Shown: positions 309-45,200, numbered from the stretch's first letter. The stretch: 64,000 nt of DNA from Candidatus Binatia bacterium (GCA_963664395.2 OY761159.2:3712001-3776000), one strand, 5' to 3'. Numbers and translations are program-made. The notes: generated by a model not told the origin, from the letters alone.

Positions 309-1853
309 CTAGGCGAGCGGTACGCTTTGACCGGCCTGAATGTAGGCGTGTTCATGCGCCAGCAATCCCATAAGCGCTGCACACCCTGCCAGTATGGCTG
401 CCCAGGGGGCGAGCAGGCCGATAGAGACCAGGAGTATCCCACCCCAGAAATAAGGCCGGTATTGACCCTTCGTCATCTCAGCAGCTGCCAGATGGGCGTG
501 GACCGTGGGATGGCTCAGCGTCATTTCCCCGCTCATGAGGAGGAGATGCAGCGCACATGACATTCCTAATAGCGTGGCTAATGGTGAAACCATGTCTGGT
601 GACAACCAGACCGCACAGGGGATGAGCGCAGCGGCTCCGGCGATAACCGCTTGGACGAGGAAATGCAGCGGGAGGAGCGGGCTTTGCCATAAGTCACGGG
701 CGGTCGATTGGGCAAAGAGATAGGCTGTATACACAGCGGTCAGCACGCCAAACGGGATACCGGGCAGCATGAGGGCTGACTGAAATGCTGTTCCGTCGGC
801 AAGAAGGCTCGCAAAAAAATGGAGGACAAGAACGAGACTGAAACCAAGGATGATAAAAGCGCCTCTGACCAGCCAGCTCCTCCACTGAGGGCGCGTAAAG
901 ATCAACACAAAGCGCTCAGGGTGGTCCAAATCAGCGATGAGAATCAGACCGGTGAGGGCAAGAAATGTACCGCTCAGGGTGGGGGCAATCCACTGCCAGA
1001 GAACGTTCTCCGGCCGCATCAGGCCAAAGAACACGAGAAACAGTGGAACGAGATACGCCCCCGAGGCGATCCCTTTTGTCCAGGTATAGAGGCTCAGTCG
1101 CCAATCCCACGGGGAATGATGCGGCACGTCATACGCCAGCACCGCTTGGACGGAGCTATTGTTCCGGGTTGGATGGCCTGAGGTCACCTGGTGCGGTCCC
1201 CGGCCTTGCTCACTCCACATAAAAAGGCCGCCTTCAGGACGTGTGGCGGCAAGCGGGTCAAGTGTTGCCTGATGTGCGCCTGTGTAGAACAATTTTGGAT
1301 GCGTTTCCTTTTCAGGGCGGCGCACGGTGACGGGTTCTCGGCCAACGATTGCCGCTACTCTTGAACCTGGTTCATTCAGGTCGCCAACCAGGATGGCCTC
1401 GGTCGGGCAGACCACAACGCAGGCCGGCTCAAGGTTCATATCAATCCGATGCGCACAAAAGTTGCACTTCTCGGCCGAGTGGTCTTCGGGATTGATAAAG
1501 ATGGCATCGTAAGGACAGGCCGCGATACAGGCTTTGCAGCCAATACAGATGGACTTGTCGAAATCCACAATGCCGTCAGAACGGGTATACATGGCGGCGG
1601 TAGGACATGCGTACGTACACGGCGCGTCTTGACATTGATTACATCGATTGACTTGAAAAGCCCGCCGCACGTTTGGAAAAGTTCCTACGTCGACGTATTT
1701 CACATAGGTGCGATTGACCGATACCGGGACATGGTTCTCTGATTTGCAGGCAGTAGTGCATGCATGGCAGCCAATACATTTGGTGTGATCAATGACCTTG
1801 GCCCAGCTCACTACAGATGCAGCTTGCGGCGTCTCTTGAGCGGTTGGTTCCAT
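309..1853 (-). CDS. 4Fe-4S dicluster protein fused to NrfD/PsrC polysulfide-reductase-type membrane anchor
   Basis: Four Cys clusters (CIGCHACTTAC, CNQCQDAPC, CIGCKACIAACP, KCNFC), then about 8 hydrophobic helices with the NrfD motif DLDHPERF...W. Start placed at ATG 1853, which has an AAGGAG RBS. Confidence 0.88.
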   Translation of the reverse strand: MEPTAQETPQAASVVSWAKVIDHTKCIGCHACTTACKSENHVPVSVNRTYVKYVDVGTFPNVRRAFQVNRCNQCQDAPCTYACPTAAMYTRSDGIVDFDKSICIGCKACIAACPYDAIFINPEDHSAEKCNFCAHRIDMNLEPACVVVCPTEAILVGDLNEPGSRVAAIVGREPVTVRRPEKETHPKLFYTGAHQATLDPLAATRPEGGLFMWSEQGRGPHQVTSGHPTRNNSSVQAVLAYDVPHHSPWDWRLSLYTWTKGIASGAYLVPLFLVFFGLMRPENVLWQWIAPTLSGTFLALTGLILIADLDHPERFVLIFTRPQWRSWLVRGAFIILGFSLVLVLHFFASLLADGTAFQSALMLPGIPFGVLTAVYTAYLFAQSTARDLWQSPLLPLHFLVQAVIAGAAALIPCAVWLSPDMVSPLATLLGMSCALHLLLMSGEMTLSHPTVHAHLAAAEMTKGQYRPYFWGGILLVSIGLLAPWAAILAGCAALMGLLAHEHAYIQAGQSVPLA

Positions 1854-1913
1854 GCAGTCTGCTCCTTCCCGCGTTAGGCTCTCTATCCATTGAGAACCGC
1901 CCCCATTTCTCAA

Positions 1914-2951
1914 TTACCGCTCAATGGGCAAGTGTTGCTCGTTCCAGTCAAGCATCCCGCCTTTAAGATTCGACACCTGCACAAACCCCAGGCCGGTGAG
2001 AATGGCTGCGGCCGTTGTGCTGCGGACTCCAGCCCGACAGATAACAATGATATTGCCGTCTTTGTACTGTTCAATTTCTCCGGCACGAGCCGGCACTTCC
2101 TTGAGGGGGATGAGGATGCTGCCCGCTATATGGCCAAGGTCATCGCTGTATTCGTCTGGTTCGCGCACATCAAGCAGGAGAGGAGGGGAGGGGTTATCCA
2201 GTTGGGCTTGGACGTCTCGCGCGGACAATTGGCGTACTCCGTTCAGCGCAGACAGACTCGGAAATTGAATGGATTCGTCTTCAATAGCGGATTGGTTCGG
2301 TTGGAGAACTTCTTGAATTTTATCTGGCAGCGAGAGGTGGAGGTTGTTCATCAAATCGACATATTCCTGGCGACTGCGGCCTGCAACGCGCGGATTTGTG
2401 TGTCTTTCTTCACCAATAGTGGATTGGGTATGACCGCGGTAGTCATGACCGGGAAAGACCAGTGTACTGTCGGGCAAGGTGAACAGTTTGTGATAGATGC
2501 CGTCGTACTGGGCGCCAGGGTCGCCATCGGGGAAGTCGGTGCGCCCGGTGCCGTGGATAAAAAGGGTGTCGCCGGTGAACACCCGATCCATGGCGTGTAA
2601 ACACATAGAGTCTGGCGTATGGCCTGGGGTAGCGAGCACATGTATGGTGAGCGTCCCAACTCGGATGAGTTGCCCATCTTCAACATGCCTATCAACATGC
2701 GGGGCTGGGGCGCGCTTATGCATGACAACTGGAGCGTCCGTGAGATCATGTAATTCCCAGCTCCCCGTCAGATGATCCGCGTGGGTATGCGTATCGATAA
2801 TGACGTCGAGCGTGTACCCATAATAGGCGAGGAGGGCGAGATAACGGTCGGTTTTTTCGAAGACTGGATCAATGAGGGCGACTGCATGTGTTTTTTCACA
2901 CCCAATCAGATAGGTCTTTGTTGCGCTGCGGTTGAGTTCACGGAACAGCAT
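1914..2951 (-). CDS. Persulfide dioxygenase (ETHE1-like MBL fold)-rhodanese fusion
   Basis: HTHADH, TPGHT, FTGDTL, GTGRTDF and PGHDY motifs. C-terminal rhodanese domain with LDVREPDEY and active-site CRAGVRS. Confidence 0.85.
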   Translation of the reverse strand: MLFRELNRSATKTYLIGCEKTHAVALIDPVFEKTDRYLALLAYYGYTLDVIIDTHTHADHLTGSWELHDLTDAPVVMHKRAPAPHVDRHVEDGQLIRVGTLTIHVLATPGHTPDSMCLHAMDRVFTGDTLFIHGTGRTDFPDGDPGAQYDGIYHKLFTLPDSTLVFPGHDYRGHTQSTIGEERHTNPRVAGRSRQEYVDLMNNLHLSLPDKIQEVLQPNQSAIEDESIQFPSLSALNGVRQLSARDVQAQLDNPSPPLLLDVREPDEYSDDLGHIAGSILIPLKEVPARAGEIEQYKDGNIIVICRAGVRSTTAAAILTGLGFVQVSNLKGGMLDWNEQHLPIER

Positions 2952-4147: not shown

Positions 4148-4744
4148 CTATGTCCGACGCGTGAGTATACAACCCAATTCGTGTAGTCCGGCTGGATGCG
4201 GAATGGTGAGCGGTTCAGCGTCTCGCCATTCCCAGCGAGTTTCCTGAAAAAGCTGATGCATGGTATCGAGATCGCATGGAAACGGCGGGCCAGCTGGGTT
4301 TGTTGCTTGCATGAAGAGCGCAAACAGTTGTCCGCTCGGCTTGAGCCACGAGAAGAGTTGGCGTTCATAGTCCTGGCGGGTTGAGGGATTGATGGCACAC
4401 AAACAGGTTTGGTCGTAGATTGCATCGAAGCGGTCGGGTGCATCCCAGTCGAGTAAGTCGGCTTGAATCACCTCTGCGGTCACGCCCGCGTTCTCAATCA
4501 ACTGTTGGGCGCCGTGCACTGCCGATGGGGCGAGATCAACGGCCGTGACCTCAAACCCCTGCTGCGCAAGGATGACAACCTCATGGCAACGCCCACAGCC
4601 GGGAATAAGTATCCGACACGGTTGAAGCAGTCCTTGCTCAAGCCAGGTGAGGAGGGCTGGGCTGGCTGATTCCCGTTGCCAGCCGGTTTGGCCTGTGTGA
4701 TATCGAGTTTCCCACTCAGCTTGCCGAGTCGCGGTGTGACTCAC
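4148..4744 (-). CDS. Thiopurine S-methyltransferase (TPMT)/thiol methyltransferase family protein
   Basis: WETRY..GQTGW, LIPGCGR SAM motif I, FDAIYDQTCLCAI and GPPF motifs. Confidence 0.85.
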   Translation of the reverse strand: MSHTATRQAEWETRYHTGQTGWQRESASPALLTWLEQGLLQPCRILIPGCGRCHEVVILAQQGFEVTAVDLAPSAVHGAQQLIENAGVTAEVIQADLLDWDAPDRFDAIYDQTCLCAINPSTRQDYERQLFSWLKPSGQLFALFMQATNPAGPPFPCDLDTMHQLFQETRWEWRDAEPLTIPHPAGLHELGCILTRRT

Positions 4745-41653: not shown

Positions 41654-41719
41654 AGACAGAGCAGAGGCCCGTTGTCTTTGGAAAGAAAACCTGACAGTCT
41701 GAAGGCGTTGGAGGAGCGT

Positions 41720-42619
41720 ATGCAGAAGCCACCGGTCGACTACATCAAACGCATTACGGATAATTATGCCGCGCTTGGCTACAAGACGTATCAATGGGTG
41801 CATAACGAAGACACGCCGCCGTGGACCCCGCTGACCAAGCCGCTGTCGGAGTGCCGCCTGGGCTTGATCGCTTCCGGTGGCATTTATGTGACCGGCCAAA
41901 TCGCTTTTCATACCAAGGACGACTTCTCGTTCCGTACTATCCCAAAGGATGTCAAAACCTCAGACCTGCGGACCGCCCATTTCGCCTACGATCAGACCGA
42001 CGCCCGGAATGATCCCAATGTCGTTTTCCCGATTGACACGCTCCGCCGTTTAGAAGAAGAAGGCGTCATCGGCGAGCTGGCCGATAACGCCTTTACCTTT
42101 ATGGGCGGCATTTATTCGACCCGGAAAGTCCGTGAGACATTAGCCCCGCAACTGACCGAGCAGTTGAAGGCCGAACGGGTTGATGTGGCTTTGCTGGTGC
42201 CCGTTTGACCGGTGTGTCATCAGTCCGTGGGACTGATTGCCCGCCATGTCGAGGCCGCCGGCATCCCGACCTTATGCATGGGCAGCGCGCTGGATATTCT
42301 CCAGGCCGTGTATCCTCCCCGCGCGGCCTTTCTCGACTATTTGCTCGGTCACACAACCGGCAAGCCGCTTGAACCGGAACTCCAGCGAGCGATCCTGCTT
42401 GAGGCTCTGGGCGCGTTCTCTTCCTTACAAGAGCCCGGCCAGATTAAACATCTCCCATTCCGCTGGGCGGAAGATGATGACTGGAAAGACGGTGTGATGA
42501 ACGACGGCGACTCCCGCACCCCGCGCCAGGATACCCCACAGTATCAAACCGAAGAAGACCGTATTCTGGCCGAGCAGAACGACCCGGAAGCCTGCGAGGT
42601 GTGTGAGACGGCGGCCTAA
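41720..42619 (+). CDS. Selenoprotein B family (GrdB/PrdB-like reductase subunit), probable Sec at codon 163
   Basis: ORFs 41672-42208 and 42212-42619 are in frame and read LLVPV-U-PVCHQSVGLIAR..EAAGIPT, with TGA at 42206-42208. N-terminal PWTPLTKPLSECRLGL..SGG and DPNVVFPID are family motifs. GGAGGAG RBS precedes ATG 41720. Confidence 0.85.
42219..42237 (+). promoter_or_regulatory. Candidate bacterial SECIS element
   Basis: Perfect 8-bp stem ATCAGTCC-GTG-GGACTGAT. The loop starts with G, 18 nt after the UGA. Confidence 0.7.
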
Positions 42620-42673
42620 AGGCGGACACAGACTGTCGGGCAGAGGGAGACAGCGTTCCCACCGAAATCTGTT

Positions 42674-42706
42674 CCCTCTCCCTCTGGGAGAGGGCCAGGG
42701 TGAGGG
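42674..42706. repeat. REP-like element
   Basis: CCCTCTCCC-TCT-GGGAGAGGG-CCAGGGTGAGGG, a widespread extragenic palindrome type. Confidence 0.7.
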
Positions 42707-42726
42707 TTCCCCTCCGAGGAGACGCA

Positions 42727-43499
42727 ATGGCAGGGCGTGAGTCACTTGGCGGAGCCACTGTGGTCGTCGGGTGTGGAGGTATCGGCAGCGCTGTCATTGC
42801 CAAGATCGCTGACCAGGGGCTCCCGCTTGTTGCCGCTGATATCGATTATGCGCGCGCCGAGGCGAGTGTCGCCAATCTTCATACCGAAGCCCTGGCCCAC
42901 AGTGTTGACGTGACGGATGAGGCGTCTGTTGCCTCTTTGATTGCTCAGGCGCGTGCGGTGTTCGGTGTCGTCACCCGGCTCGTATATACCGTCGGTATTA
43001 TCCACACCGGCAACTTCCTGGAGCTGTCTCCCCGTCAGTGGCGCCGGACGTTCGAGGTGAATCTGACCGGCGCATTTTGCAGCATCCAGGCCACTGCTCG
43101 TCACCTGATCGAGAACAATCAACCTGGCCGTATGGTGATGGTGGCCTCGGTTGCCGGGCGTGGACCGCGTGCCGATAGTAGCGACTATGCGGCGAGTAAG
43201 GCCGGCCTCATTATCTGGTGCGCTCCGCTGCCCTCAGCCTTGCTGCTGCCAACATTCAGGTCAATGCGGTCTGCCCAGGAATCGTAGATACTGCAATGAC
43301 GTATGGCATCCATACGGAACGAGCTGCCCGGCGCGGCATCAGCGTAGAAGAATCTCTGGTCGGGTTGGCCGACGCCATTCCGCTCGGGCGGATCGAAAGC
43401 CCCCAGGAGGTTGCCGAGGTCATTTGGTTTCTCCTGTCAGATGCAGCGAGCTATATAACCGGCCAAGCGCTCAACGTCTGCGGCGGGATTGGCCTTTGA
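42727..43499 (+). pseudogene. SDR-family oxidoreductase with a single-base frameshift
   Basis: GCGGIG, VNLTG and YAASK in one frame; VRSAALSLA..VNAVCPG..YITGQ in another. The frames join by adding one base near 43213. Confidence 0.8.
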
Positions 43500-44945: not shown

Positions 44946-45200
44946 TTACTCAGCCAGCAGGTCGTCCAGCTCGCCACTGACTTCCAGCGTCTGCAACTCC
45001 ATGAATCCGCCGATGGACTCGTCCCCAATAAAAATTTGGGGTACAGTCCGTTGACCTGAGCGTTGGACAATCTCTTGACGCCGGGCGGGATCGTCAGACA
45101 CGTCGATGTCTTCGAATGGGATTCCTTTTTGTGTCAGCAAAGCCTTTGCTGCGGTGCAAAAGCCTCAATAATCTGTTGAGTAGACGGTAATTTTTTTCAT
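44946..45200 (-). CDS. Glutaredoxin (Grx3-like), probable selenoprotein with UGFC active site
   Basis: From ATG 45200 (GGAGG RBS): MKKITVYSTDY-U-GFCTAAKALL...RTVPQIFI...IGGF. The TGA at 45167-45165 occupies the first Cys of the CxxC motif. Confidence 0.88.
45135..45151 (-). promoter_or_regulatory. Candidate bacterial SECIS element
   Basis: CAGCAAA-GGC-TTTGCTG hairpin. The loop begins with G, 20 nt after the UGA. Confidence 0.6.

What the first reader, a model, noticed from the sequence alone, without database searches (positions are those of the whole stretch)
41720..42619. Hidden selenoprotein: stand-alone PrdB/GrdB-like protein with UxxC and a SECIS-like hairpin
Seen: an in-frame TGA in V-U-P-V-C-H, continuous family similarity on both sides, and a perfect 8-bp hairpin with a G-first loop 18 nt downstream. 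Known: GrdB/PrdB carry Sec in UxxC and act in Stickland glycine/proline reductases with pyruvoyl proproteins (GrdE/PrdA). None of those partners is in the window, and the host has an O2-dependent dioxygenase gene. Inference: a single-gene Sec reductase with an unknown substrate, which also has an acidic C-terminal CxxC (CEVC) that may act as a built-in resolving dithiol.
Basis: partly seen in the sequence, partly recalled or inferred. Interest (0 to 1): 0.8.

Follow-up and report, generated by a model that had tools for sequence, protein, structure and literature searches.

The report
Stand-alone PrdB-like selenoprotein gene
This is a real selenocysteine-containing gene from a widespread family that databases cut short and label "D-proline reductase", although its owners lack that enzyme's other parts, so its true job is unknown.

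Summary
ORF 41720-42619 (+) has one in-frame TGA (42206-42208, U163, motif V-U-P-V-C-H). An 8-bp hairpin with loop GUG follows it.

The TGA is a selenocysteine (Sec) codon:
- 77 of 80 orthologous loci keep TGA and 3 have TGC.
- The hairpin is kept with compensatory changes.
- The frame after the TGA evolves as coding sequence.
- The genome holds selA, selB, selD and tRNA-Sec.

The protein stands alone. No GrdE/PrdA (PF09338) or GrdA (PF04723) was found in this genome. None of the 32 class relatives that hold an orthologue has PF09338, yet the same search rang in 10 other genomes of the class. It scores below NCBIfam's PrdB cut-off (179.7 against 300 bits).

A C-terminal CxxC tail is present in 59 of 77 Sec forms.

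The family is not new. Marine selenoproteome surveys have listed "proline reductase PrdB, UxxC" since 2005. What looks under-appreciated is its orphan status, the CxxC tail, three Sec paralogues per genome and a Sec-glutaredoxin 2.3 kb away.

The most likely mechanism is a selenenylsulfide redox cycle (U163/C166) recharged through the tail. This is inferred. The substrate is unknown.

The parts
41710..41715 (+). Shine-Dalgarno-like GGAGGA, 4 nt before the ATG
   Evidence: Read directly from the sequence.
41720..42619 (+). Coding sequence of the PrdB-like selenoprotein (299 aa plus stop), read with TGA 42206-42208 as Sec
   Evidence: Translation. Pfam GRDB 57.5 bits. TIGR04483 179.7 bits over residues 31-250. 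The same codon-position pattern of differences before and after the TGA.
42206..42208 (+). UGA codon for Sec163, first residue of the U-P-V-C motif
   Evidence: TGA in 77 of 80 orthologous loci and TGC in 3. Cys in 14 and Thr in 3 of 17 full-length homologues. Every match row in the class sample carries an in-frame TGA.
42215..42217 (+). Cys166 codon, invariant partner of Sec in UxxC
   Evidence: Invariant column C166 in alignments A1 and A3.
42219..42237 (+). SECIS-like hairpin inside the coding sequence: 8-bp stem, loop GUG
   Evidence: Fold. Conservation. Covariation counts. Pairing drops to 4-6 of 8 in the three TGC forms. No Rfam family matches it.
42593..42604 (+). C-terminal C292-E-V-C295 in an acidic tail of low model confidence
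   Evidence: CxxC within the last 30 residues in 59 of 77 TGA-form orthologues, 0 of 3 TGC forms and 0 of 17 full-length Cys/Thr homologues. Mean pLDDT of the last 10 residues is 54.
44949..45200 (-). Possible electron donor (association not shown): an 84-aa glutaredoxin with its own in-frame TGA (Y-U-G-F-C) and a hairpin just after it
   Evidence: Translation. Pfam Glutaredoxin 87.2 bits. Hairpin. An orthologous Grx lies within 6 kb in 6 of 80 loci, all close relatives, with Sec only in L017.

Best explanation
The gene encodes a genuine selenoprotein of the selenoprotein-B (PrdB/GrdB) superfamily that works without the Stickland partners.

Shown:
- UGA163 lies where homologues have Cys.
- It is followed by a conserved, covarying hairpin at the position expected of a bacterial SECIS element.
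- The genome has the full Sec machinery.
- The reading frame beyond the UGA is under coding constraint.
- No GrdE/PrdA or GrdA gene accompanies it.

Inferred mechanism:
1. SelB with Sec-tRNA reads UGA163 with the help of the hairpin.
2. In the folded protein, Sec163 sits in the loop between strand 156-160 and helix 164-179. Cys166 sits in the first turn of that helix, which is the usual setting of a redox-active UxxC or CxxC.
3. Sec163 attacks an oxidised or electrophilic substrate.
4. Cys166 resolves the adduct to a selenenylsulfide.
5. The flexible acidic C-terminal CxxC tail reduces that bond and is itself recharged by a thioredoxin- or glutaredoxin-type donor, perhaps the Sec-glutaredoxin 2.3 kb away.

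The substrate is unknown. D-proline reduction of the clostridial kind is unlikely, because the pyruvoyl subunit is missing.

The confidence of 0.7 is for the whole statement: about 0.95 that it is a real selenoprotein, about 0.9 that it stands alone, and about 0.45 for the tail-shuttle cycle.
For: Sec reading:
- TGA in 77 of 80 orthologous loci, TGC in 3.
- Every match row in a 101-genome class sample carries an in-frame TGA.
- 14 of 17 full-length database homologues have Cys there.
- Hairpin: 96.4% of cells paired and 31 double-change cells, with 0 of 500 shuffles reaching these values. It decays in the TGC forms.
- Differences from 9 orthologues fall on third codon positions both before the TGA (0.54-0.60 per site) and after it (0.46-0.62). 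First and second positions differ at 0.12-0.36 per site.
- selA 596 bits, selB 390 bits, selD 316 bits, and tRNA-SeC next to selA.
- TGA also ends 542 of 1480 long open frames on contig C1, so the codon is not reassigned genome-wide.
- Contigs from RNA libraries of three studies bridge the TGA. No difference is listed there among the 40 rows shown; 27 rows were not shown.

Stand-alone status:
- PF09338 and PF04723 were not found in the genome.
- PF09338 rings in 10 of 101 class genomes, but in 0 of the 12 genomes of this family and in 0 of the 32 genomes with an orthologue (best E below 1e-68). This is my own comparison of the tables.
- No conserved neighbour across 80 loci.
- No fused form of 525-2000 aa.

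Redox setting:
- AF2 model with pLDDT 93.6; strand, then U163, then helix.
- C166 is invariant.
- CxxC tail in 59 of 77 Sec forms.
Against: - No experiment shows selenium incorporation or any activity.
- The stretch around the hairpin is no more stable than shuffled sequence (z 0.21).
- The hairpin lies in codons for a conserved peptide (HQSVGLI), so part of its conservation is protein constraint. Two of the five covariation measures are not above shuffles.
- No Rfam SECIS family matches it.
- The tail is missing in 18 of 77 Sec forms.
- The link between Sec and the tail rests on only 3 independent pairs on supported branches (sign test p 0.5).
- 3 of 17 full-length homologues have Thr at the Sec site, which a pure redox role does not explain.
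- The fold gives no functional lead: best Foldseek TM 0.33, and best VIA Z 8.2 to generic alpha/beta folds.
- Contigs from RNA libraries do not prove transcription.
- The genome is 95.9% complete, so a missing partner cannot be fully excluded.
Confidence: 0.7

Rival explanations
1. It is the B subunit of a canonical D-proline, glycine, sarcosine or betaine reductase, and its partners (PrdA/GrdE, GrdA) are encoded elsewhere or in unassembled DNA.
For: The best family match is PrdB (TIGR04483, 179.7 bits, colinear over 220 residues). It carries a UxxC motif with Sec. JGI names many homologues 'D-proline reductase (dithiol) PrdB'. The genome is 95.9% complete.
Against: - The score is far below the equivalog cut-off of 300 bits.
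- PF09338 and PF04723 were not found in the genome.
- PF09338 is absent from all 12 genomes of the family and from all 32 orthologue holders, while the same search finds it in 10 other genomes of the class.
- No such gene appears among the 24 commonest neighbour clusters of 80 loci; 21 of those clusters were scanned against Pfam.
- The host has a haem-copper oxidase.
Confidence: 0.03
2. The TGA is a true stop, a sequencing error or a pseudogene lesion. Only the 162-residue N-terminal piece, or nothing, is made.
For: Gene callers end the protein there: 99 of the 120 best database hits are 164-219 aa and cover only 52-54% of the query. The neighbouring SDR gene looks frameshifted, so local errors or decay are possible.
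Against: - The TGA is kept in 77 of 80 species-level loci across many phyla.
- The downstream frame stays open and evolves as coding sequence.
- Residues after the TGA are invariant: P164, C166, E178, G181, P200, R201, G214, W255.
- The hairpin is conserved.
- The Sec machinery is present.
- Independent contigs from four runs of four studies agree at the site, as far as the rows shown go.
Confidence: 0.02
3. It is translated with Sec but is not a catalytic reductase. It could be a selenium- or metal-binding carrier, or a regulatory or scaffold protein that uses the UxxC and CxxC motifs as ligands.
For: - No substrate, cofactor site or partner could be identified.
- The fold is a generic alpha/beta sandwich closest to ligand-binding LacI-type domains (Z 8.2).
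- Thr replaces Sec or Cys in 3 of 17 full-length homologues.
- Four thiol or selenol groups could chelate a metal.
Against: - All characterised members of the superfamily use the Sec of UxxC as a catalytic nucleophile (papers read; mechanistic detail recalled).
- Sec is kept, rather than Cys, in 77 of 80 loci, which is typical of catalytic sites.
- The tail is dispensable in 18 of 77 Sec forms.
Confidence: 0.2

Closest known systems
PrdB, the selenoprotein subunit of clostridial D-proline reductase (NCBIfam TIGR04483)
   Same: Best-scoring named family. The match is colinear over residues 31-250 (model positions 16-235 of 238), and Sec sits in a UxxC motif (motif as tabulated in the review read).
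   Different: - It scores 179.7 bits against a cut-off of 300.
- No PrdA or other PF09338 gene is in the genome or in any orthologue-holding relative.
- It has about 30 extra N-terminal and about 50 extra C-terminal residues, including a conserved PQYQxEEDR stretch and the CxxC tail.
- The host can respire oxygen.
- PrdB needs PrdA and PrdH to form the active enzyme (abstract of PMC11229817).
GrdB, GrdF and GrdH, the selenoprotein B subunits of glycine, sarcosine and betaine reductase (Pfam PF07355, TIGR01918)
   Same: The Pfam GRDB domain is above its gathering score (57.5 against 22 bits). It shares the UxxC motif with Sec.
   Different: - Only the C-terminal part of the model is matched (positions 202-345 of 347); the N-terminal roughly 200 positions are not.
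- TIGR01918 scores 62.6 against a cut-off of 65.45, and TIGR01917 scores 60.3 against 602.
- No GrdA was found.
'Proline reductase PrdB' selenoprotein family of the Sargasso Sea and GOS selenoproteome surveys (pfam07355, UxxC)
   Same: Same Pfam family and the same Sec motif. The surveys report it as abundant in oxic surface ocean: 42 sequences in the Sargasso Sea (PMC1088965 text and Tables 1-3), and 235 Sec with 110 Cys forms in GOS (PMC2398784 Table 2). Marine Alpha- and Gammaproteobacteria genomes assembled from metagenomes are among the orthologues found here.
   Different: I did not compare their sequences directly. The passages I read file the family under D-proline reduction and mention neither the missing PrdA nor a CxxC tail.
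FarB/FarE, the GrdB/GrdE-like proteins proposed for fluoroacetate reduction in Synergistota (PMC10838667)
   Same: They show that the superfamily has been recruited for substrates other than amino acids. The authors propose Sec attack on a C-F bond (passages read).
   Different: Far still pairs the Sec protein with a GrdE homologue in an anaerobe. Here there is no such partner.
Enzymes with a mobile C-terminal cysteine-pair tail that shuttles electrons to the active site, such as the class I ribonucleotide reductase large subunit (recalled, not tested)
   Same: A flexible C-terminal cysteine pair lies far in sequence from the catalytic redox pair. This is only a working analogy for the tail.
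   Different: The fold and chemistry are unrelated. No test was made here.

Membership tests
D-proline reductase PrdB (TIGR04483 equivalog) | Score at or above the curated equivalog cut-off (300 bits) | tested here: not met
   179.7 bits.
D-proline reductase PrdB (TIGR04483 equivalog) | Selenocysteine in a UxxC motif | tested here: met
   U163-P-V-C166. The TGA is conserved in 77 of 80 loci.
D-proline reductase PrdB (TIGR04483 equivalog) | A partner pyruvoyl proprotein PrdA (Pfam PF09338) in the same genome | tested here: not met
   No match in the genome, which is 95.9% complete. 0 of the 12 genomes of the family and 0 of the 32 orthologue holders have it. The search rang in 10 of 101 class genomes, so it works.
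D-proline reductase PrdB (TIGR04483 equivalog) | Dithiol-dependent reduction of D-proline to 5-aminovalerate | not testable with these tools
   Needs an enzyme assay.
Glycine/sarcosine/betaine reductase selenoprotein B (PF07355, TIGR01918) | Pfam GRDB domain above the gathering score | tested here: met
   57.5 against 22 bits, but only model positions 202-345 of 347 are matched.
Glycine/sarcosine/betaine reductase selenoprotein B (PF07355, TIGR01918) | NCBIfam subfamily cut-off of TIGR01918 (65.45 bits) | tested here: not met
   62.6 bits.
Glycine/sarcosine/betaine reductase selenoprotein B (PF07355, TIGR01918) | Selenoprotein A (GrdA, PF04723) in the genome | tested here: not met
   No match. 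This search rang in no control genome, so it has no positive control.
Bacterial selenoprotein (UGA decoded as Sec) | In-frame UGA aligned with Cys in homologues | tested here: met
   TGC in 3 of 80 loci. Cys in 14 of 17 full-length homologues.
Bacterial selenoprotein (UGA decoded as Sec) | Stem-loop just downstream of the UGA with a small apical loop containing G (feature as stated in PMC1088965) | tested here: met
   8-bp stem, loop GUG, loop starting 18 nt after the UGA. Conserved with compensatory changes. No Rfam family matches. bSECISearch was not available.
Bacterial selenoprotein (UGA decoded as Sec) | selA, selB, selD and tRNA-Sec in the genome | tested here: met
Bacterial selenoprotein (UGA decoded as Sec) | Selenium found in the full-length protein | not testable with these tools
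   Needs 75Se labelling or mass spectrometry.
'Proline reductase PrdB' family of marine selenoproteome surveys | pfam07355 with a UxxC Sec motif | tested here: met
   family definition from Table 2 of PMC2398784.
'Proline reductase PrdB' family of marine selenoproteome surveys | Direct sequence similarity to the survey's sequences | not tested
   Their sequences were not fetched.

The most novel reading that the evidence does not exclude
The family is a single-polypeptide version of Stickland selenoprotein-B chemistry that works in oxygen-respiring bacteria.
1. Sec163 attacks a carbon that carries a good leaving group, such as a quaternary ammonium, sulfonium or halide next to a carboxylate. 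No pyruvoyl cofactor is needed.
2. Cys166 releases the reduced product as a selenenylsulfide forms.
3. The enzyme's own CxxC tail, fed by a (seleno)glutaredoxin or thioredoxin, resets it.

The three paralogues per genome, two of them beside luciferase-like monooxygenase genes, would then be substrate-specific variants of an unrecognised reductive C-heteroatom cleavage step in aerobic catabolism.
Probability: 0.12. Interest if true: 0.8.

Novelty: new member of a known kind. Interest (0 to 1): 0.5.

Why it matters
One of the most frequent selenoprotein families of oxic waters, and of many uncultured soil, groundwater and marine lineages, is routinely truncated at its Sec codon. Of the 120 best database hits, 99 stop there. 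It is also named after a clostridial fermentation enzyme whose essential partner its owners lack. Metabolic reconstructions that read 'D-proline reductase' from this gene are probably wrong.

The family keeps Sec rather than Cys in 77 of 80 species-level loci. It often carries its own CxxC tail and has multiplied to three copies in this genus. It is therefore a defined, testable target for finding a new selenium-dependent reaction in aerobes.

Tried and rejected
- Thermodynamics of the hairpin region: no better than shuffles, so it was not used as evidence.
- Rfam: no SECIS family matches 42150-42320. The only hit is a chance snoRNA match at E 8.5.
- Solved structures by sequence: none at E up to 1.
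- Foldseek against the PDB: the best TM-score normalised to the query is 0.33, and no match is credible.
- VIA-align wide search: best Z 8.2 to LacI-type and Rossmann-like alpha/beta domains. That is within the range the tool calls a common arrangement, so no fold assignment was made.
- Conserved gene neighbours: none across 80 loci. Clusters are lineage-specific, such as carboxylesterase, MIOX, CoA-transferase III, SDR and luciferase-like monooxygenase, each in at most 13 loci.
- Fused forms of 525-2000 aa: none, which is weak evidence.
- Link between Sec and the CxxC tail on a tree of 99 rows: only 3 independent pairs on supported branches, p 0.5. The tree was quick-mode, and the tail and Sec columns were not removed.
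- GrdA search and the first PF09338 search: no positive control among the 14 control genomes. The class-wide PF09338 search supplied one for PF09338 only.
- Literature: a search for 'PrdB-like' with 'selenoprotein' found 0 papers. A search for 'GrdB-like', 'PrdB homolog', 'selenoprotein B-like', 'PrdB-type' or 'GrdB homolog' found 3 papers, none about an orphan aerobic form. No paper found describes the orphan status in the passages I read. Supplements were not opened.
- Complex prediction: not used, because it takes only table-11 proteins.

Full report
**1. The observation**

The + strand from ATG 41720 to TAA 42617-42619 reads as one frame of 299 residues. It is broken only by TGA 42206-42208, giving ...ALLVPV-U-PVCHQSVGLIARH.... 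GGAGGA lies 4 nt before the ATG. The table-11 ORF list shows the two halves as separate ORFs, 41672-42208 and 42212-42619.

Its arms are 42219-42226 and 42230-42237, with eight perfect pairs and loop GUG at 42227-42229. The loop begins 18 nt after the TGA. The 91-nt stretch as a whole folds no better than shuffled sequence: z 0.21, and 113 of 200 shuffles fold at least as well. So stability alone proves nothing.

**2. Family**

- Pfam GRDB (PF07355) matches residues 21-160 at 57.5 bits against a cut-off of 22. Only model positions 202-345 of 347 are matched, so the model ends just before the Sec.
- NCBIfam's best match is PrdB (TIGR04483), 179.7 bits over residues 31-250, which spans the TGA. 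That is well under the equivalog cut-off of 300.
- TIGR01918 scores 62.6 against 65.45. The GrdB, GrdF and GrdH models reach 60-64 bits against cut-offs of 600-800.
- The protein is therefore PrdB-sized and PrdB-like, but by NCBI's own threshold it is not a PrdB.

**3. Is the TGA a Sec codon?**

The genome (5.04 Mb, 14 contigs, 95.9% complete) holds the full machinery:
- selA, 596 bits.
- selB, 390 bits.
- selD, 316 bits, as the C-terminal part of a 755-aa fusion with a pyridine-nucleotide-disulfide-oxidoreductase-like N-terminus and Cys at the active site.
- tRNA-SeC (anticodon tca), about 440 nt from selA.

TGA is not reassigned genome-wide. It ends 542 of 1480 open frames of at least 400 codons on contig C1 (a crude count).

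These are genomes assembled from metagenomes, labelled Binatia/Binatota, Methylomirabilota, Chloroflexi, Entotheonella, Acidobacteriota/Thermoanaerobaculia, Deferrimicrobia, Pseudomonadales, Acidimicrobiia, Alphaproteobacteria and others. At the Sec column, 77 of the 80 have TGA and 3 have TGC: L063, L069 and L083.

In the 5.8-billion-protein collection, 806 proteins match. Of the 120 best:
- 99 are 164-219 aa and cover only 52-54% of the query, so they were cut at the TGA by gene callers.
- 17 are full length. Of these, 14 have Cys and 3 have Thr at the column.

In a sample of 101 genomes of the window's class, 47 hold a match at E up to 1e-20. Every match row listed carries an in-frame TGA.

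After the TGA the frame stays open, and residues P164, C166, E178, G181, P200, R201, G214 and W255 are invariant over 71 sequences. I compared the window with nine ungapped orthologues. Differences per site were as follows:

| Codon position | Before the TGA | After the TGA |
|---|---|---|
| First and second | 0.12-0.24 | 0.12-0.36 |
| Third | 0.54-0.60 | 0.46-0.62 |

The two highest values after the TGA come from L025 and L036, which may hide internal gaps.

**4. The hairpin**

Of 78 TGA-bearing sequences (window plus 77 loci), 63 keep 8 of 8 pairs, 11 keep 7, and 4 keep 4-6. The three TGC forms keep 5, 4 and 6.

On the alignment, 96.4% of cells are paired, against at most 48.5% when the 3' partner is slid by 1-3 columns. 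Three of the eight pairs show changes on both sides:
- U-A to C-G in 19 sequences.
- G-C to A-U in 5 sequences, through two synonymous changes (CAG to CAA with CUG to UUG).
- U-A to A-U in 7 sequences.

None of 500 shuffles reaches the observed percentage paired, the number of double-change cells (31) or the covariation score. Two other measures are not above shuffles: the count of pairs with a double change (3 against a mean of 2.2; 146 of 500 reach it) and the count of further pair types (4 against 5.2).

The hairpin codes for a conserved peptide, so some of its conservation is due to the protein. The synonymous double changes and the decay in Cys forms argue for an RNA constraint tied to the UGA. 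A small apical loop containing G is the feature the Sargasso paper gives for bacterial SECIS elements (PMC1088965, passages). No Rfam family matches.

**5. Independent reads**

Contigs from three metatranscriptome libraries of three studies (X9, X17, X19) and one further run (X3) cover the site. X17 record 2 spans 41719-42683 with 48 differences. X19 record 9 spans 42155-42468. X9 record 19 spans 41882-42241. No difference at 42206-42208 appears among the 40 rows shown; 27 rows were not shown. Contigs from RNA libraries do not prove transcription.

**6. Stand-alone status**

- PF09338 (GrdE/PrdA) and PF04723 (GrdA) were not found in the genome.
- Across the same 101 class genomes, PF09338 rings in 10, which serves as a positive control. 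It rings in none of the 12 genomes of the window's family.
- Comparing the tables myself: 0 of the 32 genomes with an orthologue-level match (best E below 1e-68) have PF09338. Only 6 of the 47 genomes with any match do, and their matches are 36-39% identical.
- Neighbour genes in 80 loci are conserved only within lineages.
- The window shares nuoG, an exonuclease III-like gene and gltD/gltB with the Binatia-labelled loci.
- No fused form of 525-2000 aa was found. Two 443-aa database proteins carry an alpha/beta-hydrolase domain in front of the PrdB-like part.
- The genome has a haem-copper oxidase subunit I at 513 bits.
- The 'dioxygenase' beside the gene is only a 157-aa VOC-superfamily protein. 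A metallo-beta-lactamase plus rhodanese protein lies at 1917-2951.

**7. Structure**

AlphaFold2 with a 71-sequence alignment gives pLDDT 93.6 and pTM 0.93. Strand 156-160 is followed by U163 and then helix 164-179, so the UxxC sits at a helix N-terminus. The last 10 residues have a mean pLDDT of 54.

No solved relative was found by sequence or by Foldseek, where the best TM-score normalised to the query is 0.33. VIA-align's best Z is 8.2, to generic alpha/beta domains. This gives no functional lead.

**8. The tail**

A CxxC within the last 30 residues is present in 59 of 77 Sec-form orthologues. One of the 18 without it, L085, is cut by a frameshift. It is present in 0 of the 3 TGC forms and 0 of the 17 full-length Cys/Thr homologues.

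On a quick tree of 99 rows, the Sec/Cys/Thr state changes at least 8 times and the tail at least 5 times. Only 3 independent pairs lie on supported branches. The tail goes the same way in about 1.7 of them and never the other way, p 0.5. The link is suggestive but not shown.

**9. Mechanism**

The Sec decoding and the orphan status are shown as far as sequence can show them. The chemistry is inferred from the superfamily, where the Sec of UxxC is the nucleophile (review passages; Far proposal; details recalled from Andreesen's work). It also rests on the helix-N-terminal setting.
1. Sec163 attacks.
2. Cys166 resolves to a selenenylsulfide.
3. The mobile CxxC tail reduces it.
4. A thioredoxin- or glutaredoxin-type protein recharges the tail.

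Clostridial D-proline reduction is unlikely without the pyruvoyl subunit, which PrdB needs (abstract of PMC11229817).

**10. What is known**

- The Sargasso Sea survey lists 'Proline reductase PrdB', UXXC, as the third most abundant selenoprotein family: 42 sequences (PMC1088965, text and Tables 1-3).
- The GOS survey lists 235 Sec and 110 Cys forms in 38 samples (PMC2398784, Table 2).
- Later reviews list D-proline reductase among the most widespread families (PMC9312934; PMC13188914; PMC5029168 Table 3).
- In the passages I read, the family is explained as D-proline reductase. The missing PrdA and the tail are not mentioned.
- My searches for an orphan or 'PrdB-like' form found nothing relevant. 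Supplements were not read.

The gene is thus a new member of a catalogued but functionally unexplained family.

**11. Verdict**

| Claim | Probability |
|---|---|
| Real selenoprotein | about 0.95 |
| Stand-alone, with no Stickland partners | about 0.9 |
| Selenenylsulfide cycle with a tail shuttle | about 0.45 |

Interest is moderate. A specialist would not be surprised by the gene. The orphan status, the tail, the threefold paralogy and the nearby Sec-glutaredoxin do make the long-standing question of what 'marine PrdB' does more testable.

Noticed in passing
window 44949-45200 (-): A second hidden selenoprotein: an 84-aa glutaredoxin with in-frame TGA (motif Y-U-G-F-C), aggagg before its ATG, and an 11-bp hairpin starting right after the TGA. 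Table-11 ORF calling shows only a 64-aa C-terminal piece. Orthologues within 6 kb of the PrdB-like gene occur in 6 of 80 loci; L017 has TGA and 5 have Cys.
   Followed up: partly
L099:3921-4730 (+) = G000:C1:1853420-1854229; L015:1420-2574 (+) = G000:C1:2616090-2617244: Two more PrdB-like paralogues in the same genome, each with one TGA (U-P-V-C-H-Q and U-P-L-C-T-R) and a hairpin after it. They are 269 and 384 aa, and 35% and 34% identical to the window's protein. Both lie beside luciferase-like monooxygenase genes: one 55 nt downstream on the same strand, the other divergent. All 8 other sampled genomes of the genus have 2-3 matches.
   Followed up: partly
L100:1415-1651 (+) = G000:C1:537914-538150: A third UxxC candidate selenoprotein of the glutaredoxin/NrdH type (T-U-G-P-C) elsewhere in the genome.
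   Followed up: no
window 42727-43496 (+): The short-chain dehydrogenase just downstream is split over two frames. Pfam adh_short_C2 positions 7-151 fall in one ORF and 154-235 in the next, which suggests a frameshift near 43218-43287. This could be an assembly error or a pseudogene.
   Followed up: no
L010:1390-3657 (-): SelD is the C-terminal part of a 755-aa protein. Its N-terminus looks like a pyridine-nucleotide-disulfide oxidoreductase (judged by eye; Pfam was not run on it). The SelD active site has Cys, not Sec.
   Followed up: no
window 42660-42715: An intergenic hairpin-forming repeat lies after the stop codon. A 19-mer of it occurs 11 times in the genome. Contigs from the runs pile up on 42670-42700, with summed depth up to 3834 in X17, so it is a multi-copy element that other organisms may also carry.
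   Followed up: partly
proteins P0002, P0004, P0010: Three full-length homologues have Thr where the others have Sec or Cys (V-P-V-T-P-V-C-H-Q). This is unexplained.
   Followed up: no
proteins P0037, P0106: Two 443-aa database proteins have an alpha/beta-hydrolase domain (residues 21-258) directly in front of the PrdB-like part, which is cut at the Sec site. They may be a fusion, or two adjacent genes read through.
   Followed up: no
window 4151-4744 (-): A thiopurine S-methyltransferase family protein (Pfam TPMT, 117.5 bits). From memory, bacterial members of this family methylate selenium compounds, which may be of interest in a selenium-using genome.
   Followed up: no
window 22695-27612 (+): A ribosomal RNA operon: 16S at 22695-24248, two tRNAs, and 23S at 24635-27612.
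   Followed up: no
window 312-2951 (-): A 4Fe-4S dicluster plus NrfD-like membrane protein lies next to a metallo-beta-lactamase plus rhodanese protein. From memory, this domain pair is typical of persulfide dioxygenases.
   Followed up: no
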